DNA of 64,000 nt, taken from assembly GCA_049303675.1 (NCBI GenBank), contig JBAQNJ010000001.1:278994-342993 (forward strand), written 5' to 3'. Below are positions 31,692 through 56,816 of the stretch, piece by piece (positions within the stretch are counted from its first letter, which is position 1; every line of letters begins with the position of its first letter). This stretch comes from Microgenomates group bacterium. Lineage in GTDB: Bacteria > Patescibacteriota > Microgenomatia > UBA12405. The notes beneath the pieces are model-generated. The model was not told where the DNA came from, did not search any database, and was given only the letters and a program-made list of their open reading frames with translations. The position numbers were made by a program, and so were the translations under genes.

Positions 31692-32171
31692 TTGCTGGAA
31701 TTAGAGAAAAAATTGCCAAAAAACAATTTGCTAAATTATCAAATTGTTTATTTTCATCCCAAAACTTTTTTCAATAAATATATAAAAAGTTTTTGCACCC
31801 CTTCCCCCTTGTTAAAGGGGGATCGAGGGGGATTAATCATTGGTCTTGGCGATTTCTTTGGTGACATTACCAAAATCCGTCTCGAAACTATTACCCATAA
31901 TCAATATGCTCAAAACTCAATTTATCCATTTTCACCCATCAATTTAGATATTTCGCTGCCACCACTGGAAGATATTGACGAAAGAATCTTTACCGTTAGT
32001 GAACACATGGGCAAATACAATTGCAACTGGATTGTCTATTCTACCGAATTATATATCCGTCAACATGCCCCAGCCACAAAGCAATTATTTTTTCACCTGC
32101 CCCGTTCCCAAAATGCCACCATTTTAGCCTCTCAAATATACAATTTGCTCAATAATAATCAAATAATTTAG
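31692..32171 (+). CDS. Hypothetical protein (contains repeat copy in-frame; start uncertain)
   Basis: 159 aa ORF; hairpin repeat at 31804-31834 encodes SPLLKGDRGGL. Confidence 0.25.
   Translation: MLELEKKLPKNNLLNYQIVYFHPKTFFNKYIKSFCTPSPLLKGDRGGLIIGLGDFFGDITKIRLETITHNQYAQNSIYPFSPINLDISLPPLEDIDERIFTVSEHMGKYNCNWIVYSTELYIRQHAPATKQLFFHLPRSQNATILASQIYNLLNNNQII
31804..31834. repeat. Hairpin repeat family copy 1 (short form)
   Basis: cccccttgttaaagggggatcgagggggatt. Confidence 0.8.
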
Positions 32172-32175
32172 TGTT

Positions 32176-32218
32176 TTCCCCCTTTTCAAGGGGGAAGCGG
32201 CGTAGCCGAGGGGGTTTT
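32176..32218. repeat. Hairpin repeat family copy 2 (long form)
   Basis: ttcccccttttcaagggggaagcggcgtagccgagggggtttt, followed by ttataat 5 nt before ATG 32235. Confidence 0.8.
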
Positions 32219-32234
32219 GATGTTATAATTAACC

Positions 32235-32942
32235 ATGCCTCGAATCAAAGATGTTGATAATGTCGCTCCTGACGATTTAATTACTTCCCCAAAAACTAAT
32301 TTAACTATAAATACAAATCCAATTATAAAATCACCCAACAAGTTGGTCGATACAGAGACTTTAAACGACAAGGTTTACTCAATTTTTGGTCACACCAAGT
32401 CCTCATTTTCCTCTGCCCTAGTTTTCCCTCATGTCTTTAGTTTTGCCGAGCAGGACGACGATGAAAAAATTCTCGTCGCTATGCGTCCCCATTGGTTCAC
32501 CAATGTTTCTTGGATTTTCACCTCTATTTTTTTATTTCTCCTTCCTAGCCTAATCCATTTTGTTCCCCTTATCAACACCCTCCCGTGGAACTACCAGTTT
32601 GTCATTACCCTCTCTTGGTATCTAATCGCCATTGCCTACACTTTCGAGAAATTTATGGGCTGGTATTTCGATGTCTATATTATTACTGACCGTCGGGTCA
32701 TTGACATCGACTTTATCAATCTCCTTACCAAAAAATACGCCGAAGCAGATATATCCAAGATACAAGATGTCTCCTCGAAGGTTTCTGGTGTTAGCCAGAC
32801 ATTCTTCAATTATGGCTCAGTTCTCATCCAGACCGCCTCCGAAGTCAATGAATTGCACTTTGACAAAGTTGCCAATCCCGAAAAAATTGTCAAAATATTA
32901 CAGGAATTAGGCGAGTTAGAAGAATCCAAACACCATGAATAA
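32235..32942 (+). CDS. Membrane protein with bacterial PH (bPH_2/DUF304-like) domain
   Basis: Two TM helices then YFDVYIITDRRVIDIDF...GSVLIQTAS pattern. Confidence 0.5.
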   Translation: MPRIKDVDNVAPDDLITSPKTNLTINTNPIIKSPNKLVDTETLNDKVYSIFGHTKSSFSSALVFPHVFSFAEQDDDEKILVAMRPHWFTNVSWIFTSIFLFLLPSLIHFVPLINTLPWNYQFVITLSWYLIAIAYTFEKFMGWYFDVYIITDRRVIDIDFINLLTKKYAEADISKIQDVSSKVSGVSQTFFNYGSVLIQTASEVNELHFDKVANPEKIVKILQELGELEESKHHE

Positions 32943-33150
32943 TCTCAATCTCTATTTTTTACTGGCCCAAAAATTTTCTTTTGTTCTCGGTTCTATTATT
33001 TATCTTGTTTTTGCCCTAATTGTGGTGAAGCAAACTACTATGATGAGTAAAAACGTTATCGACAAATTCAATCCTGTTCTGATCTCCATTGCCTATCTCC
33101 ACCTCGCCTTTTCCATATTTCTCGTCTTCCTTACTTTAGTAATACTCTAA
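32935..33150 (+). CDS. Small membrane protein
   Basis: 71 aa, two hydrophobic segments, overlaps upstream gene stop. Confidence 0.3.
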   Translation: MNNLNLYFLLAQKFSFVLGSIIYLVFALIVVKQTTMMSKNVIDKFNPVLISIAYLHLAFSIFLVFLTLVIL

Positions 33151-33189
33151 CAAAGATTATCCCCCTCTTTCGTCAATATAGTTTGTACT

Positions 33190-33234
33190 TCTCCCTTTTT
33201 CAAGGGGAGATGCGGCGAAGCCGAGAGGGGTTTT
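33190..33234. repeat. Hairpin repeat family copy 3 (long form)
   Basis: tctccctttttcaaggggagatgcggcgaagccgagaggggtttt then tagtat 8 nt before ATG 33250. Confidence 0.8.
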
Positions 33235-33249
33235 GTAGTATCATTAATC

Positions 33250-35052
33250 ATGCACTTTATTTGTCGATCTTTCCTCGGTCAAGCACAGCCCAATTCTTGG
33301 TCTCAGTATTGGGAGAACGAACCAGAGGATCAGGCTCTCGCTGCCAATCGTGGCCATCTTTTTGCCCTGCTCAATCTTGTCGTTGATCAAAATATCCCCA
33401 CTAGCGATATCGGTCATCGGCTTATCAATGAACTCAATCAACAATATTTTTCTTCATCCCTTGATCCAATTCCCGTTTCACTGACGCAGGCTATCCAGAC
33501 AGTTGTCAATCAACCAGCCTACAACTTACTCGACATTTCTCTGACTATCGCCATTATTCACCAGTCCCAGCTCTATCTGGCTATGTACAACTCCGGTTAT
33601 GTTTTTCTCGTTCGCCAGCATCAGTTCTCTCAGCTTCTTAGCGGCACCACCTCGAAGGTCAATCTCGTCTCTGGCCTGATTGCCCCCGATGACATTATCT
33701 TTATTTGCACTCAAAATTTTTATGACAATGCTACCCTAAATGGTATCAAGAGTTACCTGTCATTAGGCAAAACAGAAGACATTGAGGAGAGCATTATGGC
33801 CGACATTTACACTTTTACCGAGCAGGCCACCCTCGCTTCCCTCCTCATCGGAATTCACCCCGATGTCGATACCCCTTCCCCTCTTCCTGACAGCCCCGAG
33901 CCTAGTTCTCCCCCAGTTTCTGAGGTTATTTCTCCTCCCGATGTCTACATTTCCCACCTCGACTCTACCGCCATCAAAAATCGTCGTTATTTCAACATCA
34001 TTATTGCCATCATTTTGATTTTAGCCCTGTCTGTCAGTGTTTTCTTTGGCAATCAGCGTAATCAAAAAAATAATTTACAAACCAAATATCAGACCCTCAA
34101 ATCAGCCTATCAGGCCAAAATGAGTAGTGCTCTAGCCACCAAAAATATCAATCTCGAAGAGGCCCAGAAGATTGCTGCCGAGGCCAAAAGTATCGCCCTC
34201 GAATTGCAGTCTCTCAAGATAAATTCAGCCGAATCATCCCAGTTATTAGCTGATGCCCTCAATATACTGTCCCAAACTGGTTCTGCCGACAGTTACTCAC
34301 CCCAAGACTACTACGACACCACCGATCTCAACTCTGCTGCGAATTATTCTCATCTTATTTCTGCCAAAAACTTTTTATATCTCCTCGATCAGACTTCAGG
34401 TCGTCTCGACCGCCTCGATCTAGCCGCCAAAAGCAAACAAAAAATTATCCAAAATGATCAACTAAAAAATGCCACCGATATCGCCGAAAATAATGGTCAA
34501 CTCTACCTCCTCATCGACAAAAAAATCTATCAAGTTAGTGGCACTTCCCTTAATTCAGTTATTGATATTCCCACCGACATTCCCGACTTCACCTCCGGCA
34601 AAATCCACTTTTGGAACAGTAGTCTCTATCTTCTTGGCACCAACATTTGGAAATTCACCCCCTCAGGCACCTCCTTTTCTCAGGCCCAAGTCTGGCTCAA
34701 GGATGGCAACAATTTACCACCCACTAGTTCCTCATTGGCCATCAATGGCCAAGTTTGGGTCTTAGCCAAGTCAGGGGATCTTTCCTCCTACACTCGGGGT
34801 ACCCGCGATGCCACCCCGCCCCATATTGCCACCAATTTATCAGCCGCCGATCACTTAGTTGTTTCTCTTGACTCAGAAATTATTTCCTTTGTCGATGGCA
34901 GTTCCGTTGTTTATATTTATCACAAATCTACCGCATCCGCCTCCAAATACAATTTTGGCAATCGTCAGATTCTTAGTACCGCTCTCGATTCTACTAACAA
35001 TCGTCTTTTAGTTCTCTGTGCCGACAAAAAAATCTACCAAATTAAATTATAG
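33250..35052 (+). CDS. Large hypothetical protein: cytoplasmic N-domain, single TM, Ser/Pro-rich linker, beta-rich C-domain
   Basis: 600 aa; TM RRYFNIIIAIILILALSVSVFFG; SPLPDSPEPSSPPVSEVISPP linker. Confidence 0.45.
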   Translation: MHFICRSFLGQAQPNSWSQYWENEPEDQALAANRGHLFALLNLVVDQNIPTSDIGHRLINELNQQYFSSSLDPIPVSLTQAIQTVVNQPAYNLLDISLTIAIIHQSQLYLAMYNSGYVFLVRQHQFSQLLSGTTSKVNLVSGLIAPDDIIFICTQNFYDNATLNGIKSYLSLGKTEDIEESIMADIYTFTEQATLASLLIGIHPDVDTPSPLPDSPEPSSPPVSEVISPPDVYISHLDSTAIKNRRYFNIIIAIILILALSVSVFFGNQRNQKNNLQTKYQTLKSAYQAKMSSALATKNINLEEAQKIAAEAKSIALELQSLKINSAESSQLLADALNILSQTGSADSYSPQDYYDTTDLNSAANYSHLISAKNFLYLLDQTSGRLDRLDLAAKSKQKIIQNDQLKNATDIAENNGQLYLLIDKKIYQVSGTSLNSVIDIPTDIPDFTSGKIHFWNSSLYLLGTNIWKFTPSGTSFSQAQVWLKDGNNLPPTSSSLAINGQVWVLAKSGDLSSYTRGTRDATPPHIATNLSAADHLVVSLDSEIISFVDGSSVVYIYHKSTASASKYNFGNRQILSTALDSTNNRLLVLCADKKIYQIKL

Positions 35053-35080
35053 TAGTTTTTTTGTACAACTTTGATATAAT

Positions 35081-35575
35081 TTGATTATGCCAGTTGATAA
35101 AACCCATCGAGAAATATTAGACCATGCCATCAACATTGCCTATCAAAACGCCACCAAATTCACTGCTCGCCAGCCAAATAGTGACTTCGCTACCACCTCT
35201 GCAGAAATAGATAGTTCTCGGGGTAAAGCCCATTTGTCAATTGGTGTCACTCGAACACAGCAAGGGCTAGATACCGAAGTCAGTCTTCAGCCAGCAGGTA
35301 GTGGTAAAGGCAATGACTGGAGCTATCGACTTGTATCCCAAACCGTCTGGCCAGATATCTACGGTCAACTAGTTGGAACTATGGACCATTACCCAGAAAC
35401 ACAAGGCATGACTGCCTCAGAAGCATTGGAAGTTTTACAGAAGACCTCACCCATAGAAATATCTTTTCCAAGGCGAGAACAACATTCATCTGAGGAAATC
35501 AGCTTTTTTCTACTGAGGGGAGATGGCAGAAGTGTGATTGACGATCTAGCTCGAATGGTCCGACCCCGTCGATAA
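35081..35575 (+). CDS. Hypothetical protein
   Basis: 164 aa ORF. Confidence 0.35.
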   Translation: MIMPVDKTHREILDHAINIAYQNATKFTARQPNSDFATTSAEIDSSRGKAHLSIGVTRTQQGLDTEVSLQPAGSGKGNDWSYRLVSQTVWPDIYGQLVGTMDHYPETQGMTASEALEVLQKTSPIEISFPRREQHSSEEISFFLLRGDGRSVIDDLARMVRPRR

Positions 35576-35577
35576 AA

Positions 35578-36006
35578 TTATCGTTTTTTTCTATCCAATA
35601 TTACGTCAATATATCCCGTTTTCACCCCTTCTGCTTGAGGTCTGCCCACGCCCATCATCAAAAAATACATTTTTTCTTCGCTTGCCGGCATGTCTTTTAT
35701 CCAAGCATCAGTTTTAGACATCGGTTCGATTATTTGCAAGTGGCCCACACACCTACTATCAGGATTTTCTCCTCTAGGTGTCAAATAAGTTATATTTTTT
35801 AGTGCTCGAAGTTGTTCTAGCGTCAAGCCTTCCTCTTCCCCTAACATAGTTTCAAAATTTTTTTGAGTATGTTCGGCAATTTCTTTATGAAAATCACTTG
35901 CCCTAGGTATTAGTATGAGTGCAAAAATATCCTTATTGACTGCATCCATCATTTGGGCTGAAGCTTTCAATTTCTTATAATACTCTCTAAATTTCTCGTC
36001 ATCCAT
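35578..36006 (-). CDS. Hypothetical protein
   Basis: 142 aa ORF. Confidence 0.35.
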   Translation of the reverse strand: MDDEKFREYYKKLKASAQMMDAVNKDIFALILIPRASDFHKEIAEHTQKNFETMLGEEEGLTLEQLRALKNITYLTPRGENPDSRCVGHLQIIEPMSKTDAWIKDMPASEEKMYFLMMGVGRPQAEGVKTGYIDVILDRKKR

Positions 36007-36047
36007 ATCATTATTATATCAATAAAGCCCATAATATACAATGTTTT

Positions 36048-36089
36048 TCTCCCTTGTCATAGGGAGAAGCGGCTGTGCCGAGAGGGATT
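36048..36089. repeat. Hairpin repeat family copy 4 (long form)
   Basis: tctcccttgtcatagggagaagcggctgtgccgagagggatt. Confidence 0.8.
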
Positions 36090-36155
36090 GAAATATGAGA
36101 TAATCACTTAGTTTGTTTTATTCATAAATCATATTTCTTATTTCATACACCAACT

Positions 36156-36566
36156 ATGAGGTACTTCAATCGAGATTCACTCGACTACGAGTTCAAAGAC
36201 AAGTACGAAGCAGGCCTCGTCCTCACTGGTTCTGATGCCAAATCTCTCCGGACTCAGGGAGTCCTCTTCAATGGCTCCAAAATCGAGATAATTGATGGTA
36301 TTCCTACAGTTTTCAATCTGACTATCGAGCCCTACAAGTATTCCCAAAACCAATCGATCGACACCACTCGGGAACGAAAAATCTTATTATCGCAGAGGGA
36401 AATAGCCAAGTTAATTAGTCTCCGCAATCAAAAATATATGATCATCCCCATCAGTATATTTTTGAAGCACAATTGGTTCAAAATGGAAATTGGTGTCGGC
36501 CGCAAGCTCCGCAAATACGAAAAAAGAGAAAAAATCAAAGCCAAGGATTCTCTACGTCACTCCTAA
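36156..36566 (+). CDS. smpB: SsrA-binding protein SmpB
   Basis: DKYEAGLVLTGSDAKSLR...KILLSQREIAKL...MEIGVGRKLRKYEKREKIK. Confidence 0.85.
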   Translation: MRYFNRDSLDYEFKDKYEAGLVLTGSDAKSLRTQGVLFNGSKIEIIDGIPTVFNLTIEPYKYSQNQSIDTTRERKILLSQREIAKLISLRNQKYMIIPISIFLKHNWFKMEIGVGRKLRKYEKREKIKAKDSLRHS

Positions 36567-36567
36567 A

Positions 36568-36804: not shown

Positions 36805-36882
36805 ATCGCTAATCTATCATATTATTGTCATTTTTTCTCCTTGTTGCTGGCCAATGCCCCTAGTTTGTAGTAACCTATATGT

Positions 36883-39246: not shown

Positions 39247-39678
39247 AGGAGGAGATGCTCGGTATTGAGCCGAGGTCCAAAGTGGACTATAAAAAACGTC
39301 TACAAGCTTAATTTACTTTATCCTACACTTTCAACAACTAAAGTAAACGAAAAGTGTTGAAATGTCGATTATTGAGGGCATTACCCCTCTCTTAAATCCA
39401 CGATCTAATCGAGAAGATCGGGACAGCATTCTAGTTTAATTTACACTAGCTAGTCTTCTCTAGAAAAGGGGACTAACTAATGGATGATTCTGTTTAGGCA
39501 AGAGCCCAAACAGGAGCCTTAGAAGCTAGAGCGCCTTTTACAGCGTTTGCAACTTTGGTTAAATCAACACCAAAAGTATTTTTGGCATGTTTGTTTTTGA
39601 CCCTGTTTAACGACTCAATGGATCAAAGTCGGCTTGCGGTTTTTTAAGGTACTCACCTTGTCGATGCAATACATCTCC
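39247..39678 (-). ncRNA. ssrA: tmRNA (ssrA) candidate
   Basis: Minus strand: 5' GGAGATG-TATTGCATCGACAAGG (cf. GGAUUCGACGGG), internal tag ORF GCA AAC GCT ... TAA = ANAVKGALASKAPVWALA*, 3' GGAC-CTCGG-CTCAATA-CCGAG-CATCTCC (T-arm + acceptor strand complementary to 5' GGAGATG) then terminator; smpB 2.7 kb away. Confidence 0.55.
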
Positions 39679-46417: not shown

Positions 46418-46455
46418 TTTCCCCTCTTTGCTCAAAGAGGGGCTAGGGGTGATTT
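46418..46455. repeat. Hairpin repeat family copy 5 (short form)
   Basis: tttcccctctttgctcaaagaggggctaggggtgattt. Confidence 0.7.
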
Positions 46456-46589
46456 AAAATCTTGCATTCTATTTTTAGTTTCGCTATTATTCTTAGAGTG
46501 TTTAGAAGACCCTTAGGGGTTGACAACCGAGTCCGCCAAATGGTCCACGGTGCCCACTAAAACACGCCTTATCAATTAAAAGGAAAAAT

Positions 46590-47726: not shown

Positions 47727-47752
47727 GGTTAAAAAATTGAAACTTAGATTAA

Positions 47753-48019: not shown

Positions 48020-48436
48020 ATGCAAGTTAGTATCTACACCGATGGTGGTAGTCGAGGCAATCCAGGCCCTTCCGGTTTTGGCGTCGTTATTTATGACGAA
48101 CACAAAAAAATCATCGAAAAAATCAGTCAGTTTGTGGGAGTGAAGACCAACAATGAAGCCGAATATCTCGCCCTCAATGAGGCAATTTCTTGGGTCAAGC
48201 ACAATTATCAAAAGTTGGACATCACTCAAATCGAATTTTATTCCGATTCTCAGCTCTTAGTCCGCCAAATGCAAGGCAAATACAAGGTCAAGGCTCCTAC
48301 TATTGTTCCACTTTATCGTCTTGCGGCCTCCACTCTCTTTGAATTAAAATTAAATTATTCTTTTCACGAAATTTTACGTGAATTAAATTCCGTCGCCGAC
48401 TCTCTTGCTAATCAAGCAATGGATAATAAAAAATAA
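48020..48436 (+). CDS. rnhA: Ribonuclease H I-like
   Basis: MQVSIYTDGGSRGNPGPSGFGVVIY...EAEYLALNEA...YSDSQLLV. Confidence 0.8.
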   Translation: MQVSIYTDGGSRGNPGPSGFGVVIYDEHKKIIEKISQFVGVKTNNEAEYLALNEAISWVKHNYQKLDITQIEFYSDSQLLVRQMQGKYKVKAPTIVPLYRLAASTLFELKLNYSFHEILRELNSVADSLANQAMDNKK

Positions 48437-50217
48437 TGAATAATAATCTATATAAAAATAGTACTTTCCCCCTTTTTCAAGGGGGGATTAAGGGGGGTTT
48501 TGTATTAAAAACTTTTTTTTACTTTTTACTTTTTACTTTTGTTTTTATTTTAATTTTTACTCTCCCTCTTATTTTCGGTTTTGGCAAAACCGGCAAAAAC
48601 ACTCTTGTTTTAGGCAAAGACTATTCCTTACTCTCCAAATCCCAAATAATTTCTCGCTTATCAGTCGATTTTCCTCTTCCTCCCAGCCTGAATATTCAGA
48701 CCTCAAACCGCAAATTTACTCTCAATTTAGCCGATATCTCCGCCCAATACGACTATCCCTCAATCGCATCCAATCTACTATTCCGTCGACTTCATAGTGG
48801 AGTTTTACCTTATTTTAAGGCATTTTTTCAGCCAAAAAACTTTAGCCTTAGTCTCGATTACAGCTCCGATTCACTCGATAAACAAATTGCCAATATCTCC
48901 CAGCAGGTCGATCATCCCTTTGTTCCCTCCCAATTTAGTCTCGATGAGAAATCCAAAGAAATCATCCTCAAAAACGGTGAACGGGGGCAAAGAGTCAATT
49001 CTGAAGAATTGAAAAACCGTCTCGTCTCTGCTCTTCGTTATTATGAGGCATCTACCCCTATCGACCTTCCCCTCGACCCTATTGGTGAGTTGCCCACTAC
49101 TGATCAAATTAGTAGTGCCACCGCTGTCGCTCAGTCCCTTATCGGCAAGAAGCTCGAATTTTCCGCCCCCGACGAGGTTGTCACCCTCGACGACAAGACC
49201 CTTATTTCTTGGGTCGACTTTGGGACCATTTGTCGCCGCTCCACAGTTGATGATTATGTCGCTGGACTGAAGTCTAGTCTGAAAAAGGATCCTGTCGAAG
49301 CCGTCTTCAAATTTGAAAATGGTCAAGTCCTCGAATTTCAACCATCTAAAAATGGTTATCTATTAGATGACTCCAATTTAAGCCAACAAATTTGTTCAAA
49401 AATAGTTGAACTATCCCAATCCTCGGACAAAATAATTAAGGATAAATTCCCAGTTATCACCCTCGAAACCAAGACTCAAAACTCTGATGTCAACAATTTA
49501 GGCATCAAAGAATTAATTGGCAGTGGCACCTCTACCTTCCGTCACAGTAGTACTATTCGCAATATCAATGTCGAGCGCGGCGCCCAAATAGTCAATCGCA
49601 TTTTAGTCGCCCCAGGCGAAAAGTTTTCCTTTGTCAAAGCTCTTGGCGATGTCACCATCGAAAATGGTTTCAAAATGGCTTATGTCATTCGGGCCGGCAA
49701 GACGGAATTAGACGTTGGTGGTGGTATCTGTCAGGTCTCCACCACTTTTTTCCGCGCCCTTCTCAATTCTGGGCTCGATATAATTGACAGACGCAACCAC
49801 GCCTATCGAGTCCAATACTATGAAGAAGACATGCCCCCAGGTTATGACGCCACTGTTTTTATCCCCAGTCCTGATTTATCTTTTGTCAACGACACTGGCC
49901 ATCATATCCTTATTCAAAGTAAATATGATGGTAAAAATAAACGGCTTACCTACGATCTTTATGGTACCTCCGATGGTCGATCTGTCGATATTAGCAACTA
50001 TCGCCAATGGGGAGCTGCTCCTGCTCCTCCGGCGGTCTATATTGACGATCCTACCTTACCGGCGGGCAAAGTCGTTCAGGACGAGCACGCTATTCCAGGA
50101 CTGAAGACATCTTTTGACTGGAAAGTGACCCGAGCCGGAGAGATAATCCATCAGAAAACCTTTACCAGCAATTTCGTCCCTTGGGCCGCCGTTTTCCGTC
50201 GCGGACCGCAAATTTAA
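48436..50217 (+). CDS. VanW-family protein with N-terminal TM
   Basis: GGGICQVSTTFFRALLNSGLDIIDRRNHAYRVQYY...GYDATVF VanW core; N-terminus carries hairpin repeat copy 6 and heptamer tract in-frame. Confidence 0.7.
   Translation: MNNNLYKNSTFPLFQGGIKGGFVLKTFFYFLLFTFVFILIFTLPLIFGFGKTGKNTLVLGKDYSLLSKSQIISRLSVDFPLPPSLNIQTSNRKFTLNLADISAQYDYPSIASNLLFRRLHSGVLPYFKAFFQPKNFSLSLDYSSDSLDKQIANISQQVDHPFVPSQFSLDEKSKEIILKNGERGQRVNSEELKNRLVSALRYYEASTPIDLPLDPIGELPTTDQISSATAVAQSLIGKKLEFSAPDEVVTLDDKTLISWVDFGTICRRSTVDDYVAGLKSSLKKDPVEAVFKFENGQVLEFQPSKNGYLLDDSNLSQQICSKIVELSQSSDKIIKDKFPVITLETKTQNSDVNNLGIKELIGSGTSTFRHSSTIRNINVERGAQIVNRILVAPGEKFSFVKALGDVTIENGFKMAYVIRAGKTELDVGGGICQVSTTFFRALLNSGLDIIDRRNHAYRVQYYEEDMPPGYDATVFIPSPDLSFVNDTGHHILIQSKYDGKNKRLTYDLYGTSDGRSVDISNYRQWGAAPAPPAVYIDDPTLPAGKVVQDEHAIPGLKTSFDWKVTRAGEIIHQKTFTSNFVPWAAVFRRGPQI
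48465..48501. repeat. Hairpin repeat family copy 6 (short form), in-frame in VanW N-terminus
   Basis: tttccccctttttcaaggggggattaaggggggtttt encodes FPLFQGGIKGGF. Confidence 0.8.
48511..48541. repeat. Heptanucleotide tract actttttttt(actttttx2)acttttg
   Basis: encodes FFYFLLFTF of VanW signal/TM. Confidence 0.75.
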
Positions 50218-50235
50218 CAATTTAATTAAACGCGA

Positions 50236-50652: not shown

Positions 50653-50669
50653 TTTTTGTCTATATTCTC

Positions 50670-51038: not shown

Positions 51039-51089
51039 ACCCTATATTATACGAAACACCAATTATATAGTCAACTATCCATCAAATTT

Positions 51090-51737: not shown

Positions 51738-51780
51738 GACGAATTATAACTTTTTTGTAGGGGCGACGCTAGCCGTCGCC

Positions 51781-52884
51781 CTAAAAGTTTAATCGTGGAT
51801 CACGGTCCAGAGTCTCGGGATCCGACCATTCTTTTCGCTTCGCCAATTCCCAGCCCACTCTTCCAATCATGGCCGCATTATCGGTATTTAGCCATATTTT
51901 CGCTGGCATATAAATTAGCAATTTCTTTTTTCTGGCTAGGGCTCTCAGTTTTTTTCGAAGCATCATATTGGCCAGTACCCCTCCCGAGGCCATTATAGTT
52001 TTTGGCTCATATTTATCAATCGCCAAATCAAATTTTCTAATCAAAGTATTGAATACCGACTCTTGAAATGTTGCCGCCAGACTAGCCAAATTTTTATTTT
52101 TTTCCTCTATTGACCAGTCTTTTATTTTATAATAAAAACTAGTTTTCAGTCCCGAAAAGCTATAGTCCAACACTTTTTTATCGGCGAGCGGTTTGGGTAA
52201 TTCAAACAAATTATTATTGGCGCCAGCTTGCATCGCCAGTCGCTCTATCACCGGCCCCCCAGGGTATCCCAAACCCAGTAATTTTGCCGCCTTATCCAAC
52301 GCTTCTCCCGCCGCATCATCCAACGTTTCCCCCACTACAGTATATTTTTGTAAGGGCGTACCCTTGTGGTCGCCCTTTTCCAAAAGTACAATCTTCGTAT
52401 GTCCTCCACTTACCGTCAGGCAAATAGCTGGCAGCTCTATCTCTCTCTCTGGCAATCCTTTACTATTTTTGACGAGGTTAGACAATATATGTCCCTCCAC
52501 ATGATTCACCGCCACCAATTTTTTATTATATTTTATCGCCAATTCACAGGCAGTTTTCACCCCTACTCCTAGAGCAATCGCCAGCCCCGGCCCTTTCGTC
52601 ACTGCAATTACATCAACAGACTTCATGTAATATTCCAATGTCTTTCTCTCCCTTGTCAAAGGGAGATGCCCCGAAGGGGAGAGGGATTGAGAACGTTTCA
52701 ATGCCGTCATTATCACCGGCAAAATTCTCGCTTGATGTGCTCTTTTCGCAATATCCGGTACCACCCCACCCCAATCTTTATGCAAATCAGTTTGCGAGGA
52801 AATTACATTACTTATCACTCGATCATTTTCCAGCACTGCCGCACAGGTATCATCACAGCTGGTTTCAATCGCCAATATTTTCAT
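51781..52884 (-). CDS. tsaD: tRNA N6-adenosine threonylcarbamoyltransferase TsaD
   Basis: MKILAIETSCDDTCAAVLE...VTKGPGLAIALGVGV...VNHVEGHIL; carries in-frame hairpin repeat copy 7 (LPLTRERK). Confidence 0.9.
   Translation of the reverse strand: MKILAIETSCDDTCAAVLENDRVISNVISSQTDLHKDWGGVVPDIAKRAHQARILPVIMTALKRSQSLSPSGHLPLTRERKTLEYYMKSVDVIAVTKGPGLAIALGVGVKTACELAIKYNKKLVAVNHVEGHILSNLVKNSKGLPEREIELPAICLTVSGGHTKIVLLEKGDHKGTPLQKYTVVGETLDDAAGEALDKAAKLLGLGYPGGPVIERLAMQAGANNNLFELPKPLADKKVLDYSFSGLKTSFYYKIKDWSIEEKNKNLASLAATFQESVFNTLIRKFDLAIDKYEPKTIMASGGVLANMMLRKKLRALARKKKLLIYMPAKIWLNTDNAAMIGRVGWELAKRKEWSDPETLDRDPRLNF
52645..52688. repeat. Hairpin repeat family copy 7 (long form, inner hairpin CCCCGAAGGGG), in-frame in tsaD
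   Basis: tctctcccttgtcaaagggagatgccccgaaggggagagggatt. Confidence 0.8.
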
Positions 52885-52905
52885 AATTGGGTATATTATA
52901 AATTA

Positions 52906-53466
52906 ATGAGTCGCCATCTACCCTACATATTATTATCCCTCATTTTTTTAGGGCTATCCCTCTTTGGTGTTAATTACCTCAAAAGCATAGTTGTCGTCCA
53001 GCCGGAACCGCTAGTCAACGATGTTTTTCCCATTCCAACTGCCGCTGCCACGGCAACAGCGGTCCCTACCGATATCTCTGCAACTATGACTCTCGCCCCT
53101 ACAGTGACTCCTGTTACCCAAACTCTAACTAGTGACAAATATCACTTTAGCTTAGTTTACCCATCTTTCCGTACTTTATACGAAGCAGCCGAGAATGGGG
53201 GTACCCGTTTTACCCTTTATTCTGCCTCTGGCAATATCACTCTTCACGCTGGCACCCTCTGGTCATGGACTCATCCCAGCCGTGTTTTTTCCACCGAGTT
53301 ACTCGTTTCCGGACAGCCCACCTTTGTCTACCGTGTTCCCACCCAGACAATTGTCGACTTCCAAAACGGTGGTATCAACTACACTATTCAGTGTGTCCAC
53401 AAAGACATTCCTTCAGCCGTTCTCGAGTGCGACAATATTATCTCCAGCTTCGTTCTAACTTCCTAA
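52906..53466 (+). CDS. Secreted/anchored hypothetical protein
   Basis: Likely start MSRHLPYILLSLIFLGLSLFGV (ORF track starts 52666 inside tsaD); Thr/Ala-rich linker. Confidence 0.45.
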   Translation: MSRHLPYILLSLIFLGLSLFGVNYLKSIVVVQPEPLVNDVFPIPTAAATATAVPTDISATMTLAPTVTPVTQTLTSDKYHFSLVYPSFRTLYEAAENGGTRFTLYSASGNITLHAGTLWSWTHPSRVFSTELLVSGQPTFVYRVPTQTIVDFQNGGINYTIQCVHKDIPSAVLECDNIISSFVLTS

Positions 53467-54136
53467 TCAACATATTTTTTTTGACGTATTCTCTGGTAAA
53501 TGACACCAAACTCTTTTTTCTATCAATACTCATCTCAAAATCACCAACTCTTATTTTCTCTATTATCTCCTGCCAACTTTTTATCCCTTCACCAAAAACC
53601 ATTTTTCCCTTACCGAGATACATTAGTGCATGAGCATCACTGCCAGTTATGGATATCATGTTCAGTTTTTTTGCCAGACGTACTGCCTTTCTGGTAGCCA
53701 ATTTTGTTTGGGCCACACAATAGCTTTCCATCGCGTCTAGGTCAAGTTTTTTTATTTTGCTATTCAGCGACGAGCCAAACTTGTTAAACGGGTGAGCCGC
53801 GATAGCCAACCCACCTTGTTGATGAATCAGTTCTATTGTCTCCTTAGCACTTAACTTGGCCGGAATTTCTCTCAATATGCCATAAGCTAATATATGTCCA
53901 TCTTTACTGGATATTTCACACGCCGGCACCAGCACTATCGGCAGTTTTTTGTCCCCAATTATTTTTTTTGCCCTCCGATATCCTTCTAGTGAATCATGAT
54001 CGGTAATTGCCAATATTTCAATTCCTAGCTCAATACATCTCTCCATAATTTCCTCCACCGACATCACCGAGTCATAAAACTTTTTGAAGTAGGGGAGTCT
54101 AGTTGTCCGGCTATGGCAATGTAATTCCGCAATCAT
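53438..54136 (-). CDS. PHP-domain phosphoesterase
   Basis: MIAELHCHSRTT...LAITDHDSLEGY...HPF motifs. Confidence 0.7.
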   Translation of the reverse strand: MIAELHCHSRTTRLPYFKKFYDSVMSVEEIMERCIELGIEILAITDHDSLEGYRRAKKIIGDKKLPIVLVPACEISSKDGHILAYGILREIPAKLSAKETIELIHQQGGLAIAAHPFNKFGSSLNSKIKKLDLDAMESYCVAQTKLATRKAVRLAKKLNMISITGSDAHALMYLGKGKMVFGEGIKSWQEIIEKIRVGDFEMSIDRKKSLVSFTREYVKKNMLIRKLERSWR

Positions 54137-54159
54137 TATGTATTATATATAATTCGAAG

Positions 54160-54194
54160 TCCCCCTTGTTAAAGGGGGATTTAGGTGGATTAGG
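54160..54194. repeat. Hairpin repeat family copy 8 (short form)
   Basis: tcccccttgttaaagggggatttaggtggattagg between divergent PHP and lemA. Confidence 0.75.
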
Positions 54195-54208
54195 TGTTAT
54201 TATAAAGT

Positions 54209-54769
54209 ATGAACAAAACACTTATCTCTATTGTTGCCATTCTTGTTTTTCTCGGTCTGGTTCTCGCCGGAGTCTACAACAATCTTATCTCTCTAAATCA
54301 AAAAGTTGACCTTGCTTGGGCTCAGGTTGATACTCAGTATCAGCGTCGTTTTGACCTCATTCCCAATTTAGTCTCATCAGTCCAAGGCGAGATGAAACAG
54401 GAGCAGAAAATATTCTCCGACATTGCTACCGCTCGGACTCAATATTCCGGTGCTGCCTCGGTCAATGACAAAGCCACTGCCGCCACAGCCTTAGAGGGGA
54501 CTTTGGGCAGATTATTAGTTATTATGGAAAATTATCCCGTTCTAAAATCCAACGAAAATGTCACTCGACTTATGGATGAATTGGCTGGTACCGAAAATCG
54601 TATCAGTGTCGAGCGCTCTCGTTTCAACAATCAGGTTACTACCTACAACATGGTAGTAATTCGATTCCCTGGCAATCTTCTCGCTCGACTTTTTGGCTTT
54701 AGTTCACGAGCATTTTTTCAAAGTGCCAGTGGCGCCGATGTTGCCCCACGAGTGGAAATTAATCCCTAA
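54209..54769 (+). CDS. lemA: LemA-family protein
   Basis: TM then NNLISLNQKVDLAWAQVDTQYQRRFDLIPNLV. Confidence 0.8.
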   Translation: MNKTLISIVAILVFLGLVLAGVYNNLISLNQKVDLAWAQVDTQYQRRFDLIPNLVSSVQGEMKQEQKIFSDIATARTQYSGAASVNDKATAATALEGTLGRLLVIMENYPVLKSNENVTRLMDELAGTENRISVERSRFNNQVTTYNMVVIRFPGNLLARLFGFSSRAFFQSASGADVAPRVEINP

Positions 54770-54772
54770 TTC

Positions 54773-55615
54773 ATGAGAACAATTTGGCTTAGCTTTCTTT
54801 TCTTTATTTTTTCACTTTCGCAGGTCTTTGCTCAAAATATTCCCAATCCCACGAGCTATGTTAATGATTACGCCAATGTTTTATCTGATCAGTTTGAAGC
54901 CCAATTAGACCAGCAAATATCCGATTTTCAAAAGAAAACTTCTATTGAAATCGCAGTAGTCACGGTTGCCTCCCTCGATGGCACCACTGTCGATGATTAT
55001 GCGGTCAAGTTGTTTGAGAAATGGGGCATTGGTCAGGCCAAAAAAGATAATGGCTTATTATTTCTAATTGCCCCAAATGAAAAAAAAGTCCGCCTTGAAG
55101 TCGGTTATGGCTTGGAAGGCACTATCACCGATGGTCGTGCTGGAAATATTCTGGACACTCAGGTACTGCCAGAATTCAAAAAAAATGATTATGAAGCCGG
55201 AGTCAAAAACGGTGTCGATGTGCTAATTTCTTACCTCAATGATCCTTCCTCTATCCCCGCCACCACTTCTGATTTACCATCAGAGTCTACCATCACTTGG
55301 CTAATGATAATTTTATTTTCCGGTCTGCCAATTTATTTTCTGTCCTATCTTAGCCGCTCTCGGGAAATCACTACTGGCGCTATTGTCGGAGGTCTTATTG
55401 GTTACTTAATATACGGCTTTATTTTTGCCATTATTTTGGGTATTTTTGGACTAATACTTGACCTAATTCTCTCTCGCAATTACAAAAAATTTACCTCGAT
55501 GGGACTATCGACTAGTTTTTGGAAAAGTCGTGGTGGTTTTGGCGGTGGGGGAGGTGGATTTGGAGGTTTTGGTGGAGGGGGTAGTGGCGGCGGCGGCTCG
55601 TCGAGAGGTTGGTAG
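54773..55615 (+). CDS. TPM-domain (YgcG-like) protein with Gly-rich C-terminus
   Basis: VNDYANVLSDQFEAQLDQQISDFQKKTSIEIAVVTVASLDG; C-terminal GGFGGGGGGFGGFGGGGSGGGG. Confidence 0.75.
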   Translation: MRTIWLSFLFFIFSLSQVFAQNIPNPTSYVNDYANVLSDQFEAQLDQQISDFQKKTSIEIAVVTVASLDGTTVDDYAVKLFEKWGIGQAKKDNGLLFLIAPNEKKVRLEVGYGLEGTITDGRAGNILDTQVLPEFKKNDYEAGVKNGVDVLISYLNDPSSIPATTSDLPSESTITWLMIILFSGLPIYFLSYLSRSREITTGAIVGGLIGYLIYGFIFAIILGIFGLILDLILSRNYKKFTSMGLSTSFWKSRGGFGGGGGGFGGFGGGGSGGGGSSRGW

Positions 55616-55727
55616 CGCTAGTGTCATTCCCGCGCCGTGTCAGTCTGTAGCTTTAGCGTAGGATGATAGGTGGGAATCTATTAAATTTATTTGTCCTATT
55701 CATAAATCTTAAATCGTATATCTTAAA

Positions 55728-56816
55728 TCAAAAATTTATCTCCCGTGTCGTCTCATCCACATAGCTAAAATTAATCGGTATATAGTTAGTTATTTTTTTT
55801 AATTTATTTAGGTATTCTTCACCCATATTTTCCGGCCACTCAATACAGGCAACTAGCTCTGAGCTTGTCGAAGGGAATTGTTCCAAAAATTTTATTTCCT
55901 CAAATTCATATTTATTTCCCAATCTATACAAATCAAAATGTAAAAATTTCTTGCACTGATAACTGTTCACTGATAACTGTTCACTGATTAAATATTCATT
56001 ATAAATTACAAACGTCGGGCTAGTTATTTTTTCCTTTACCCCGAGTAGTTGTCCTATCTTTCGGGAAAATACAGTCTTTCCACAACCTAGGTCTCCGCTC
56101 AATCCAAACACTAGAGGTTTTCTCTCCCTTGTTAAAGGGAGAAGCGGCGTAGCCGAGAGGGATTTGTTCAACAAAAATTCAGCAATTTTCTCCGTTTCCT
56201 TTTCCGATTTAGAAATTAGTGTTTGGGATTTCCCCACTATCAAGTCTCCCCGTCTGAGGATTTTTATCTCCGGTTCAGTGGCGTCAATTACTGTCGATGG
56301 TTTGTTCCGTGGTAATTTACCACTGTCCACCATCATATCGATCATCATCAATTTTTTCTGGGACAGAGTTTTTACAAAGCTTGCCAGTGAATAGTGGGGA
56401 GTCCGTCCCGACAGATTCGCTGACGTCGCCGTCACTGGCCCTCCCACCGCCTTCACCAGATCCATTATCCATTGGTTATCCGGTATTCGTATTCCCAATG
56501 TCCCATTTTCCGCCTCTATACCCTTGGCCACCTTATGTTTGCCCTCCGACACAATCGTAAAAGGTCCGGGTAGCAAGTTTGCATAAATATTTTCTGCATT
56601 TTCACTCAGTTTTACAAAATCTTGTGCCATTTTTTTATCTGCTACAGCTATCGATATCGCCTTCCCCGTCCATCTGTTTTTAAATGCGAGAAGTTTATCT
56701 GTTGCGCTCTGGCTTCTCGGATCTACCGCCAAAATGTACACCGTATCACTCGGGAATATTACTAGCCCACCATCTTTTATTATTCTGGCCGCCTTTTCAA
56801 TATCCTCGACTTTCAT
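55728..56816 (-). CDS. Fused TsaC/Sua5 (YrdC domain) and TsaE (P-loop) protein
   Basis: N: GGLVIFPSDTVYILAVDP...; C: SEKETEKIAEFLL...GDLGCGKTVFSRKIG...SPTFVIYNEY...HFDLYRL; carries hairpin copy 9 and 14-mer repeat in-frame in TsaE part. Confidence 0.75.
   Translation of the reverse strand: MKVEDIEKAARIIKDGGLVIFPSDTVYILAVDPRSQSATDKLLAFKNRWTGKAISIAVADKKMAQDFVKLSENAENIYANLLPGPFTIVSEGKHKVAKGIEAENGTLGIRIPDNQWIMDLVKAVGGPVTATSANLSGRTPHYSLASFVKTLSQKKLMMIDMMVDSGKLPRNKPSTVIDATEPEIKILRRGDLIVGKSQTLISKSEKETEKIAEFLLNKSLSATPLLPLTRERKPLVFGLSGDLGCGKTVFSRKIGQLLGVKEKITSPTFVIYNEYLISEQLSVNSYQCKKFLHFDLYRLGNKYEFEEIKFLEQFPSTSSELVACIEWPENMGEEYLNKLKKITNYIPINFSYVDETTREINF
55954..55989. repeat. 14-mer tandem repeat (aactgttcactgat)x2.5
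   Basis: cactgataactgttcactgataactgttcactgatt encodes ISEQLSVNSYQ. Confidence 0.8.
56121..56165. repeat. Hairpin repeat family copy 9 (long form), in-frame in TsaE domain
   Basis: tctctcccttgttaaagggagaagcggcgtagccgagagggattt encodes (minus) SLSATPLLPLTRERK. Confidence 0.8.

What the first reader, a model, noticed from the sequence alone, without database searches (positions are those of the whole stretch)
31804..56165. Family of 35-45 nt GC-hairpin repeats inserted in-frame into conserved genes
Nine copies cluster between 31.8 and 56.2 kb, none in the first 31 kb: 31804-31834, 32176-32218, 33190-33234, 36048-36089, 46418-46455, 48465-48501, 52645-52688, 54160-54194 and 56121-56165. Consensus is YTCYCCCTT-(TGTTAAA/TTTTCAA/TGTCAWA)-AGGGRGA, then either AAGCGGCGTAGCCGAG-AGGGRTTT (long form) or a short G-rich tail (short form). 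The inner 4-bp hairpin keeps its structure across copies while the sequence changes (CGGC-GTA-GCCG, CGGC-GAA-GCCG, CGGC-TGT-GCCG, CCCC-GAA-GGGG), so the structure looks selected. Copies lie in intergenic DNA (36048, 46418, 54160, 32176, 33190) and also inside reading frames without breaking them. tsaD carries ...GHLPLTRERKTLEY, the TsaE domain of the tsaC-tsaE fusion carries SLSATPLLPLTRERKPLV between the conserved helix and the P-loop, the VanW N-terminus carries FPLFQGGIKGGF, and hypothetical ORF 31692 carries SPLLKGDRGGL. Two of the three frames on each strand are stop-free. This resembles Rickettsia palindromic elements (in-frame selfish insertions into proteins), but these are much shorter and I do not recognise them as a described family.
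Basis: seen in the sequence. Interest (0 to 1): 0.85.

Follow-up and report, generated by a model that had tools for sequence, protein, structure and literature searches.

The report
Triplex-forming DNA repeats inside essential genes
The nine repeats are real and belong to a known kind of bacterial repeat, short DNA motifs built to fold into a hairpin plus a third strand (BoxC/PIT type), but here, in a tiny-genome CPR bacterium, they also sit in frame inside essential genes and all point the same way relative to DNA replication, which has not been described for this kind.

Summary
All nine copies exist at the stated coordinates, all on the + strand. The 3' G-rich tail is the mirror image of the purine arm of the main hairpin, with A or T opposite A. 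Each copy is therefore Y-arm / loop / R-arm / linker / mirror arm. That is a class II purine-motif intrastrand triplex motif, the kind known as BoxC, PIT elements or TM_ECO in E. coli (Holder 2015). A finder written from that rule alone recovers exactly these nine on the + strand; shuffles give about 0.03.

- **Forms:** the linker is 3 nt in the short form and a covarying mini-hairpin in the long form.
- **Location:** four copies lie inside called genes: tsaD, the tsaC-tsaE fusion, VanW and a hypothetical gene. Solved TsaD structures and several close orthologs lack the segment.
- **Relatives:** related CPR genomes carry the same or different subfamilies at the same protein loops. The tsaD copy is 88-98% identical between genomes whose tsaD is otherwise 68-70% identical.
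- **Orientation:** the triplex strand lies on the C-rich (lagging) strand, 9/9 here and 35 vs 8 in two independent samples.

No transposase, target-site duplication or Rfam family was found. Verdict: a new variant of a known kind. The copying mechanism and any folding in vivo remain unknown.

The parts
31803..31834 (+). Short-form triplex motif: Y TCCCCCTT / loop GTTA / R AAGGGGGA / linker TCG / mirror arm AGGGGGAT(T)
   Evidence: It lies inside the source's gene call 31713-32171 and encodes SPLLKGDRGGL. The reality of that gene is uncertain.
32176..32218 (+). Long-form motif: TTCCCCCTT / TTC / AAGGGGGAA / linker GCGGCGTAGCC (mini-hairpin CGGC-GTA-GCCG) / GAGGGGGTT
   Evidence: Intergenic. It ends 16 nt before the ATG at 32235.
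33190..33234 (+). Long-form motif: TCTCCCTTT / TTC / AAGGGGAGA / TGCGGCGAAGCCG / AGAGGGGTT
   Evidence: Intergenic, between the gene ending at 33150 and the ATG at 33250. The R arm and mirror arm both have four G while the Y arm has CCCT, so the third arm tracks the R arm.
36047..36089 (+). Long-form motif: TTCTCCCT / TGTCAT / AGGGAGAA / GCGGCTGTGCC / GAGAGGGA(TT)
   Evidence: It lies in the divergent intergenic region between the gene at 35578-36006 (-) and smpB at 36156-36566 (+).
46419..46455 (+). Short-form motif of reversed polarity: CCCCTCTTT / GCTC / AAAGAGGGG / CTA / GGGGTGATT
   Evidence: The hairpin has its G-C block at the outer end, and the third arm is still the mirror, with T opposite A. 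Intergenic, between a YafQ-like toxin gene and the SAM-I/IV riboswitch at 46493-46599.
48466..48501 (+). Short-form motif: TTCCCCCTT / TTTC / AAGGGGGGA / TTA / AGGGGGGTT
   Evidence: It is in frame and sense in VanW (48436-50217), codons 10-22, encoding FPLFQGGIKGGF.
52645..52688 (+). Long-form motif: TCTCCCTT / GTCA / AAGGGAGA / TGCCCCGAAGGGG / AGAGGGAT(T)
   Evidence: It is antisense and in frame in tsaD, encoding QSLSPSGHLPLTRER. The segment is absent from solved TsaD structures. It is modelled as a low-confidence coil, residues 68-78.
54160..54192 (+). Short-form motif: TCCCCCTT / GTTA / AAGGGGGA / TTT / AGGTGGAT (one mismatched triad)
   Evidence: It lies in the 72-nt divergent intergenic region between the PHP gene at 53438-54136 (-) and lemA at 54209-54769 (+).
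56121..56165 (+). Long-form motif: TCTCCCTT / GTTA / AAGGGAGA / AGCGGCGTAGCCG / AGAGGGAT(TT)
   Evidence: It is antisense and in frame in the tsaC-tsaE fusion, encoding KSLSATPLLPLTRER just before the P-loop strand.
51781..52884 (-). tsaD, host gene of copy 52645
   Evidence: PF00814.
55728..56816 (-). tsaC(Sua5/YrdC)-tsaE fusion gene, host of copy 56121
   Evidence: PF01300 plus PF02367.
48436..50217 (+). VanW-domain gene, host of copy 48466
   Evidence: PF04294.

Best explanation
The nine copies are members of a lineage-specific family of class II intrastrand purine-motif triplex motifs, the same kind as E. coli BoxC / PIT / TM_ECO.

**Anatomy.** Each unit is 31-45 nt.
- A homopyrimidine arm (TCYCCCTT).
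- A 3-6 nt loop.
- The Watson-Crick purine arm (AAGGGRGA).
- A linker, either 3 nt or a small hairpin with a 3-nt loop.
- A third arm that mirrors the purine arm (AGRGGGATT).

On single-stranded DNA the third arm can lie antiparallel in the major groove, forming G*G-C and A/T*A-T triads.

**Spread (inferred).** The units behave as dispersed, non-autonomous DNA repeats. Near-identical copies sit at unlinked sites and in diverged genomes, with sharp ends and no transposase or target duplication in view. The copying mechanism is unknown.

**In-frame copies (inferred).** In these compact CPR genomes, copies persist where they do least harm. Those places are short intergenic spacers just upstream of start codons, and disordered surface loops or tails of proteins, in reading frames that happen to be open.

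**Orientation (inferred).** Copies keep one orientation relative to replication, with the triplex-capable G-rich strand on the lagging strand, that is, the leading-strand template. Either copies whose purine-motif strand is exposed on the lagging-strand template stall replication and are lost, or insertion itself is strand-specific.

**Shown versus inferred.**
- Shown: the anatomy, the excess over chance, the in-frame positions, the lineage specificity, the orientation bias and the nucleic-acid-level conservation.
- Inferred: triplex folding in vivo, mobility, and the reason for the orientation.
For: **Architecture**
- A rule-only finder recovers exactly the nine copies on +, none real on -, and no class I motifs. 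Shuffles give 0.025-0.05.
- In a hairpin-only metagenome sample (TCTCCCTT-N4-AAGGGAGA, no constraint on flanks), 81 of 137 hairpins carry the mirror arm AGAGGGAW within 18 nt. Displaced control windows give 11 of 137. A direct repeat of the arm is found in 9 of 137. After AGAGGGA the next two bases are TT in 65 of 66.
- Watson-Crick folding leaves the conserved 3' arm unpaired in all nine copies.
- The copy at 46419 has an inverted-polarity hairpin, yet its third arm is still the mirror.

**Linker**
- 41% of 105 distinct long linkers have a stem of 4 bp or more, against 4% when shuffled, with many different stem sequences.

**Known kind**
- PMC4666352 describes class II motifs. It gives TM_ECO as CCCTCNCCC-N3-6-GGGNGAGGG-N3-GGGNGAGGG and shows triplex formation of the isolated strand by CD and NMR.

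**Dispersal**
- The 42-nt long form is nearly identical in several Patescibacteria/Shapirobacteria assemblies and related contigs. Its 5' edge is sharp and its 3' end is TT(T).
- Locus L124 has identical copies in tsaD and in a class I aminoacyl-tRNA synthetase.

**In-frame, lineage-specific**
- The TsaE site carries three different subfamilies in three genomes, and unrelated sequence in a fourth.
- Fitch parsimony gives at least 15 and 29 state changes for the two TsaD loops among 120 orthologs.
- 18 of 98 motifs in low-GC metagenome loci lie in long ORFs.

**Nucleic-acid-level constraint or homogenisation**
- The element is 88-98% identical between tsaD orthologs, against 68-70% for the rest of the gene. 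The differences fall in and next to the mini-hairpin, where GG/CC is swapped for CC/GG on both sides.

**Orientation**
- 9 of 9 here (P = 0.004). The window's skew is replication-type, negative for genes on both strands: third codon positions -0.43 and -0.35.
- Species-representative low-GC loci give 19 vs 4. Metagenome loci with |skew| of 0.1 or more give 16 vs 4. Together 35 vs 8, P = 4e-5.
Against: - Triplex folding in vivo has not been shown for any member of this kind. In E. coli, DMS footprinting did not detect it, and the duplex form competes.
- No enzyme, target-site duplication or empty site was found, so 'mobile' rests on copy distribution only.
- Orthologous copies at the same tsaD position in three genomes could be one old insertion under constraint rather than repeated insertion.
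- The orientation-skew link is absent in high-GC genomes (43 vs 49). In E. coli no strand bias is reported.
- Leading and lagging strands are assigned from skew, not from a mapped origin.
- Five long forms have a second loop of 11-13 nt, longer than the 1-6 nt used to define motifs in the ITxF database.
- Seven of nine copies are sense to, or upstream of, + strand genes. An RNA-level role for those copies is not excluded.
Confidence: 0.72

Rival explanations
1. They are RNA-level cis-regulatory elements, such as a 5' UTR or intercistronic hairpin, a stability element, an attenuator or a terminator. They would act in the mRNAs of the + strand genes they precede.
For: - Seven of nine copies are sense to, or directly upstream of, + strand genes.
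- Three copies end 14-16 nt before a start codon.
- The main hairpin and mini-hairpin are predicted to be stable.
- The mini-hairpin covaries.
Against: - Two copies are antisense inside tsaD and tsaE. In relatives both sense and antisense in-gene copies occur, while the chromosomal orientation stays fixed.
- None of the four copies in the scanned stretch (31-37 kb) is flagged as terminator-like, and only three of the nine are followed by TTTT.
- There is no Rfam match, even at E up to 1.
- The conserved mirror arm has no Watson-Crick partner.
- Purine-motif triplexes are reported not to form in RNA, and E. coli PIT elements had no promoter or terminator activity.
Confidence: 0.12
2. It is a miniature transposon of a known type: a REP/REPIN mobilised by a RAYT (Y1 HUH) transposase, or a MITE mobilised by an IS transposase. 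The triplex-compatible arms would be incidental.
For: - The copies are short, structured, dispersed and strand-biased.
- IS200/IS605-type and REP systems act on hairpins in single-stranded DNA at the fork and show replication-linked orientation (own knowledge).
- Near-identical copies occur across genomes.
Against: - There are no terminal inverted repeats beyond the hairpin, and no target-site duplication in 19 aligned copies.
- There are no inverted pairs (REPIN doublets) in the window.
- No transposase, integrase or HUH domain appears in Pfam scans of 40 window ORFs or in the precomputed Pfam tables for the genes at about 42-63 kb.
- The mirror arm is specifically conserved, which such models do not need.
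- Only 64 kb of a 998-kb genome was seen.
Confidence: 0.1
3. They are ancestral or protein-level features: low-complexity Pro/Gly/Arg-rich linker peptides selected for protein function. The DNA similarity would be a by-product.
For: The same peptide type, SLSxxPxLPLTRE, occurs at the same TsaD position in three genomes.
Against: - The same DNA unit occurs between genes and in both orientations and several frames, giving unrelated peptides such as FPLFQGGIKGGF, SLSATPLLPLTRER and NPSKSPFDKGD.
- Close orthologs and all solved TsaD structures lack the segment.
- The region is modelled as a low-confidence coil.
- DNA identity exceeds that of the surrounding essential gene, with paired changes in the mini-hairpin.
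Confidence: 0.03
4. It is a hairpin/G-quadruplex switch, as proposed for C-rich plus G-rich repeats in E. coli and methanogens. The triplex would be only one of several folds.
For: - Related repeats in Methanomicrobiaceae interconvert between triplex, hairpin and G4 in vitro.
- A second cross-phylum family seen in the genome scan (CCCTTCTCCC...GGGAGAAGGGTTGGGGATGAGGGGG) has four G-tracts.
Against: The copies in this window have only two G-runs of three or more (the R arm and the mirror arm). An intramolecular four-tract quadruplex cannot form from them (sequence).
Confidence: 0.03

Closest known systems
BoxC / PIT (potential intrastrand triplex) elements / TM_ECO of E. coli and other class II intrastrand triplex motifs (Hoyne & Maher 2000, 2002; Holder et al. 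2015, PMC4666352)
   Same: - The same order of parts on one strand: pyrimidine arm, loop, purine arm, loop, mirrored G/A/T arm.
- Stems of 8-10 triads that are G/C-rich.
- Many dispersed copies per genome, usually close upstream of genes.
- No associated transposase.
- The complement is a class III/IV pyrimidine motif.
   Different: - The arm sequence differs: TCYCCCTT against CCCTCNCCC.
- Half the copies have a structured 11-13 nt mini-hairpin as the second loop, instead of 3 nt.
- Copies lie in frame inside essential genes; TM_ECO is 'always intergenic'.
- There is a strict single orientation tied to GC skew; E. coli shows 13 vs 10 with no bias.
- The hosts are CPR/Patescibacteria with genomes of about 1 Mb.
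Rickettsia palindromic elements (RPEs)
   Same: They are non-autonomous repeats that insert in frame into unrelated housekeeping genes of a reduced genome and are tolerated as extra peptide segments (PMC10969869).
   Different: - RPEs are about 100-150 bp and encode a conserved peptide per family.
- They are not homopurine/homopyrimidine mirror repeats.
- The present units are 31-45 nt and are defined by a triplex-compatible fold.
- The same unit is read in several frames and in both orientations.
REP / REPIN elements with RAYT transposases
   Same: They are short (20-40 nt), hairpin-forming, highly repeated and mostly intergenic. Their action is thought to involve single-stranded DNA.
   Different: - No inverted doublets were found.
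- No RAYT was seen in the available sequence.
- REPs have no mirrored third arm.
- REPs are extragenic by definition.
Recurrent G-rich/C-rich repeats of Methanomicrobiaceae (PMC8044849)
   Same: They are intergenic repeats whose single strand forms a GC hairpin with an antiparallel G-rich third strand in vitro.
   Different: - They are archaeal.
- The C-rich tract is 3' of the G-rich part, which is the class I order.
- They have four G-tracts, so a G4 competes.
- They are not reported inside genes.

Membership tests
Class II intrastrand purine-motif triplex motif (PIT / BoxC / TM, ITxF definition) | The order 5'-pyrimidine arm / purine arm (Watson-Crick, antiparallel) / third arm that mirrors the purine arm, with G opposite G and A or T opposite A. 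| tested here: met
   Met in 9 of 9 copies with at most one mismatched triad. The finder uses only this rule. Shuffles give 0.025-0.05 per strand. The mirror arm is found far more often than a direct-repeat arm, 81 vs 9 of 137.
Class II intrastrand purine-motif triplex motif (PIT / BoxC / TM, ITxF definition) | Stem of 6-15 triads, with at most one mismatch when longer than 7. | tested here: met
   Stems are 8-9 triads, with 0 or 1 mismatch.
Class II intrastrand purine-motif triplex motif (PIT / BoxC / TM, ITxF definition) | Both loops 1-6 nt (ITxF search setting). | tested here: inconclusive
   Loop 1 is 3-6 nt in all copies. Loop 2 is 3 nt in the four short forms, but 11-13 nt and folded as a mini-hairpin in the five long forms.
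Class II intrastrand purine-motif triplex motif (PIT / BoxC / TM, ITxF definition) | The isolated strand forms a triplex (CD, NMR, melting). | not testable with these tools
   This was shown only for the E. coli TM_ECO strand in the literature. ViennaRNA models Watson-Crick pairs only and leaves the third arm unpaired.
TM_ECO / BoxC proper (E. coli sequence family) | The consensus CCCTCNCCC-N3-6-GGGNGAGGG-N3-GGGNGAGGG. | tested here: not met
   The arms here are TCYCCCTT / AAGGGRGA / AGRGGGAT, or CCCCTCTTT and its partners. The architecture is the same but the sequence family is different.
Rickettsia palindromic elements | Palindromic repeats of about 100-150 bp in Rickettsia, with a family-specific conserved encoded peptide, often inserted in frame. 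| tested here: not met
   The length is 31-45 nt. The same unit gives different peptides depending on frame and orientation. Only the in-frame behaviour is shared.
MITE | Terminal inverted repeats and target-site duplications. | tested here: not met
   In 19 aligned long-form copies the flanks are unrelated right up to the Y arm and after the TT(T). No direct repeats were seen.
REP / REPIN-RAYT | Inverted doublets of REPs and a RAYT (Y1 transposase) gene in the genome. | tested here: inconclusive
   There are no opposite-strand partners in the window. No Y1/HUH domain was found in the ORFs scanned or in the precomputed Pfam tables. The other 934 kb of the genome could not be read.
Intrinsic terminator | A GC-rich hairpin immediately followed by a T-run on the transcribed strand. 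| tested here: not met
   None of the copies in 31-37 kb is flagged. The hairpin is followed by the linker and G-rich arm. Only 3 of 9 copies then have TTTT.
Any Rfam RNA family | A covariance-model match. | tested here: not met
   There is no match at gathering score over the whole window. There is none at E up to 1 over 31700-36200, which holds four copies.

The most novel reading that the evidence does not exclude
These are structure-defined, replication-coupled mobile DNA units. The folded single strand (hairpin, structured linker and third strand) would itself be the recognised and copied entity. It would insert or survive on one replication strand only. It would recurrently colonise and replace itself at the same permissive loops of essential proteins across CPR bacteria, and be kept by selection at the nucleic-acid level inside coding sequence. 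That would be a new mode of coding-compatible selfish DNA, and the first natural setting where intrastrand triplex formation has a measurable genomic consequence.
Probability: 0.25. Interest if true: 0.85.

Novelty: new variant of a known kind. Interest (0 to 1): 0.62.

Why it matters
Intrastrand triplex repeats (BoxC/PIT) have been known for about 25 years without a demonstrated function or proof of folding in cells. In these CPR genomes the same kind of motif shows three features not reported in the BoxC/PIT papers read here.

- It is embedded in frame in essential genes (tsaD, tsaE, an aminoacyl-tRNA synthetase, VanW), at recurrent hot spots.
- It is conserved better than the surrounding gene, with paired changes that keep the linker hairpin.
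- It is locked to one replication strand.

Together these give indirect in vivo evidence that the single-strand fold matters. They also give a concrete system, orientation-dependent replication assays, in which to test it.

There is a practical side too. These units inflate and diversify CPR protein sequences. TsaD loop lengths run from 7 to 40 and from 9 to 70 residues among close orthologs. This can mislead alignment, phylogeny and domain annotation.

Tried and rejected
- **Genome scan too loose.** It did not return the window's own genome, so a genome-wide copy count and the origin/terminus orientation test could not be done. It was still useful, because it showed the same architecture in many phyla.
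- **Shine-Dalgarno idea dropped.** I considered the G-rich tail as a Shine-Dalgarno site. The G-run lies about 20 nt from the start codons.
- **Promoter idea dropped.** On the opposite strand the hairpin loop reads TTGACA, and two promoter-like sites are flagged. The loop sequence differs in other genomes, and PIT elements had no promoter activity in E. coli.
- **Other structure classes.** No terminator-like sites coincide with the copies scanned, and no Rfam family matches. G-quadruplex is ruled out by having only two G-tracts. No class I motifs were found.
- **Mobility signatures.** No target-site duplication or terminal inverted repeats were found.
- **Viruses as carriers.** 14 viral contigs have the hairpin, but only 1 has the mirror arm.
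- **Strain-level polymorphism.** Other assemblies carrying the same proteins are the same strain, with the same gene layout.
- **Literature.** Searches for CPR or in-frame triplex repeats found nothing.
- **High-GC genomes.** The orientation-versus-skew link does not hold there.

Full report
**Source of the window.** The window is the reverse complement of positions 118,470-182,469 of a 998,417-bp contig, JBAQFH010000001.1 (assembly GCA_049287145.1). This is a CPR/Microgenomates-type metagenome-assembled genome. The window is 40% G+C. Its GC skew is about -0.2 along its whole length. The skew is negative for genes on both strands, with third codon positions at -0.43 and -0.35. It therefore reflects replication and not transcription, and the window's + strand is the C-rich, lagging-type strand.

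**Observation.** All nine copies are at the stated coordinates, and all lie in the same orientation on the + strand. The long-form pattern matches five times against 0.00 in shuffles. Nine copies confined to 24.4 kb of 64 kb has P = 0.0027, a post hoc figure.

The 3' 'G-rich tail' is not a loose tail. It is the mirror image of the purine arm of the main hairpin: AAGGGAGA is followed, after the linker, by AGAGGGAT(T). The same holds for AAGGGGGA and AGGGGGAT, and for AAGGGGAGA and AGAGGGGTT.

Copy 46419 has a hairpin of opposite polarity (CCCCTCTTT/AAAGAGGGG). Its third arm, GGGGTGATT, is still the mirror, with T opposite A.

This is the textbook design of an intrastrand purine-motif triplex. 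A pyrimidine arm and a purine arm pair by Watson-Crick. A third G/A/T arm can then bind antiparallel to the purine arm through G*G-C, A*A-T and T*A-T triads.

**Tests of the architecture.**
- I wrote a finder that knows only this rule. It returns exactly the nine copies on the + strand and nothing real on the - strand. Forty dinucleotide shuffles give 0.025 and 0.05 hits per strand.
- The nine are the only C-rich homopyrimidine/homopurine hairpins in the window. No class I motifs are present.
- Watson-Crick folding of each copy predicts the main hairpin and, in long forms, the mini-hairpin. It leaves the conserved third arm unpaired in all nine.

**Unbiased check elsewhere.** I scanned metagenome contigs with the hairpin alone (TCTCCCTT-N4-AAGGGAGA), which is palindromic and says nothing about flanks. 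This gave 120 loci, and a viral scan gave 14 more.
- Of 137 hairpins, 81 have AGAGGGAW within 18 nt on one side. Displaced control windows give 11.
- Only 9 have a direct repeat of the arm.
- After AGAGGGA the next bases are TT in 65 of 66.
- Linkers are either about 3 nt (TTT in 34 cases) or diverse mini-hairpins.
- Over all loci, 41% of 105 distinct long linkers have a stem of 4 bp or more, against 4% when shuffled. Many different stems occur: GCC/GGC, GTCC/GGAC, GCGGC/GCCG, GGGC/GCCC and GTCAC/GTGAC.

**Known kind.** A literature search led to Holder et al. 2015 (PMC4666352).
- The paper defines class II motifs as pyrimidine, then purine, then reverse-Hoogsteen domain.
- It gives TM_ECO, also called BoxC or PIT elements, as CCCTCNCCC-N3-6-GGGNGAGGG-N3-GGGNGAGGG.
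- It shows by CD and NMR that the isolated strand forms a triplex, but found no evidence for it in vivo.
- It reports the E. coli copies as always intergenic and without strand bias (13 vs 10). It associates them with local genomic instability.
- Earlier work it cites found no promoter or terminator activity. The paper also states that purine-motif triplexes do not form in RNA.
- An archaeal analogue is described in PMC8044849.

It nevertheless showed the same architecture, including a covarying mini-hairpin linker, in many groups. These include Dehalococcoidia, Abditibacterium, Leptospirales, Ignavibacteria, Bacteroidota, Rhizobiales and several CPR groups. The kind is therefore not new. The sequence family here differs from TM_ECO.

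**In-frame copies.**
- *tsaD:* the copy is antisense and encodes QSLSPSGHLPLTRER between the helix ending ...TALKR and the strand VDVIAVT. Thermotoga and E. coli TsaD structures align with a gap there. An AlphaFold model (pLDDT 82.7) gives a low-confidence coil at residues 68-78.
- *TsaD loops among the 120 nearest orthologs:* this loop is 7 residues in 34 orthologs and 16-40 in 86. A second loop is 9 residues in 45 orthologs and up to 70 in the rest. The extra segments are largely translations of such hairpin units: PLTRE, PLTGQG, PLDKGA, PFDKGE, SLTRGG and NPSALRAAPLDKGA. On a rough NJ tree the two loops need at least 15 and 29 state changes.
- *tsaC-tsaE fusion:* the copy encodes KSLSATPLLPLTRER just before the P-loop strand. 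At exactly this site, relatives L123 and L124 carry two other triplex subfamilies. L125 carries 30 nt of unrelated sequence.
- *VanW:* the copy is sense, at codons 10-22. The ATGA start overlapping the RNase H stop is conserved in relatives.
- *Hypothetical gene:* the source's gene call 31713-32171 includes copy 31803, but that gene is poorly supported.
- *Relatives:* L124 has a copy in a class I aminoacyl-tRNA synthetase that is identical to its tsaD copy. L126 has three degenerate tandem units in TsaD loop 2.
- *Metagenome loci:* 18 of 98 motifs found de novo in low-GC loci lie in long ORFs.

**Conservation.** The 42-nt long form is almost identical in several Patescibacteria and Shapirobacteria assemblies. 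It has a sharp 5' edge and a TT(T) 3' end, with no target-site duplication and no terminal inverted repeats.

Between tsaD orthologs the element is 88-98% identical, while the rest of this essential gene is 68-70% identical. The window's differences fall in and next to the mini-hairpin, where GCGGC...GCCG becomes GCCCC...GGGG, so pairing is kept. This means either constraint at the nucleic-acid level or recent re-insertion or homogenisation.

Relative L125, whose TsaD has no insert, has no motif in 19 kb.

**Orientation.**
- All nine copies have the triplex-capable strand on the C-rich strand (P = 0.004). This holds although two sit in - strand genes and the rest in or before + strand genes.
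- In syntenic loci L123 and L124 all real copies are again on the C-rich strand.
- In independent samples the same holds. Species-representative low-GC loci give 19 vs 4. Hairpin-only metagenome loci of at least 3 kb with |skew| of 0.1 or more give 16 vs 4. Together this is 35 vs 8, P = 4e-5.
- High-GC genomes show no link (43 vs 49).

From my own knowledge of (GAA)n and H-DNA work, homopurine strands stall forks when they are the lagging-strand template. The orientation seen here avoids that. Selection against the harmful orientation is therefore a simple explanation. A strand-specific insertion mechanism, as in IS200/IS605, is the alternative.

**Surroundings.** Pfam scans of 40 window ORFs, plus the precomputed Pfam tables for the genes at about 42-63 kb, show housekeeping genes only. 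There is no transposase, integrase or HUH enzyme. No Rfam family matches. No terminator-like site coincides with a copy in the stretch scanned. Only 1 of 14 viral hairpin hits has the mirror arm.

**Verdict.** These are selfish-looking repeats inserted in frame, as in Rickettsia. Structurally, though, they are a CPR family of the known BoxC/PIT class II intrastrand triplex motifs. Three things appear new:
- the structured linker;
- the recurrent in-frame occupation and turnover at loops of essential proteins;
- the replication-strand lock.

The copying mechanism and any folding in vivo remain unproven.

Noticed in passing
window 27314-28249 (-): The ORF matches the 5-hmdU DNA kinase helical domain (PF18723, E = 2.6e-97). 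This is a gene of thymidine hypermodification pathways, otherwise typical of phages. Here it sits in a CPR chromosome among housekeeping genes.
   Followed up: no
window 46493-46599 (+): A SAM-I/IV riboswitch scores exactly at the Rfam gathering score (41.1 bits). It lies directly upstream of, and overlapping the start of, the S-adenosylmethionine synthetase gene at 46590-47690.
   Followed up: no
window 36060-36033 and 33203-33175 (- strand); hairpin loops of copies 36047, 52645, 33190: On the opposite strand the hairpin apex TTGTCAA reads TTGACA, the -35 consensus. With a TATATT 16-17 nt away it gives promoter-like sites pointing leftwards. Loop sequences differ in other genomes, so this is probably incidental.
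   Followed up: partly
L124 10001-11152 (TsaD loop 2) and many TsaD orthologs (P0008, P0040, P0053, P0076 and others): A second, unrelated kind of in-frame insert recurs in the same TsaD loops. The peptides resemble SNFQF..., ISDLRFQKKLKQEKIE and FLKNKEEKINKII. The DNA is AT-rich, for example CAATTTTCAATTTCTAATTCTCAATTTTTAAAAAATAAAAAAG. This may be another repeat family.
   Followed up: partly
window 835-1590 vs 3080-3832: There is a partial second copy, 70-72% identical, of part of the bifunctional penicillin-binding protein gene at 2018-4201 (-). That gene has transglycosylase and transpeptidase domains.
   Followed up: no
L004, L008, L016, L046, L049, L060, L087 (OZ242281.1) and other Dehalococcoidia chromosomes: There are many copies of CTCTCCCCCTTGCGGGGGGAGATGCCGAAGGCAGAGGGGG. 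This has the same Y/R/mini-hairpin/mirror architecture, in a distant phylum. A second cross-phylum family, CCCTTCTCCC-N3-GGGAGAAGGG-TT-GGGGATGAGGGGG, occurs in Hyphomonas, cyanobacteria, Pirellulales and Chloroflexota.
   Followed up: partly
L096 2030-2084 and L082 4798-4856: These are double-ended units. One hairpin has a mirror arm on both sides, so each strand carries a class II motif sharing the same stem.
   Followed up: no
window 39247-39678 (-) and 36156-36566 (+): The tmRNA gene and smpB lie 3 kb apart. Triplex copy 36047 sits 66 nt upstream of smpB.
   Followed up: no
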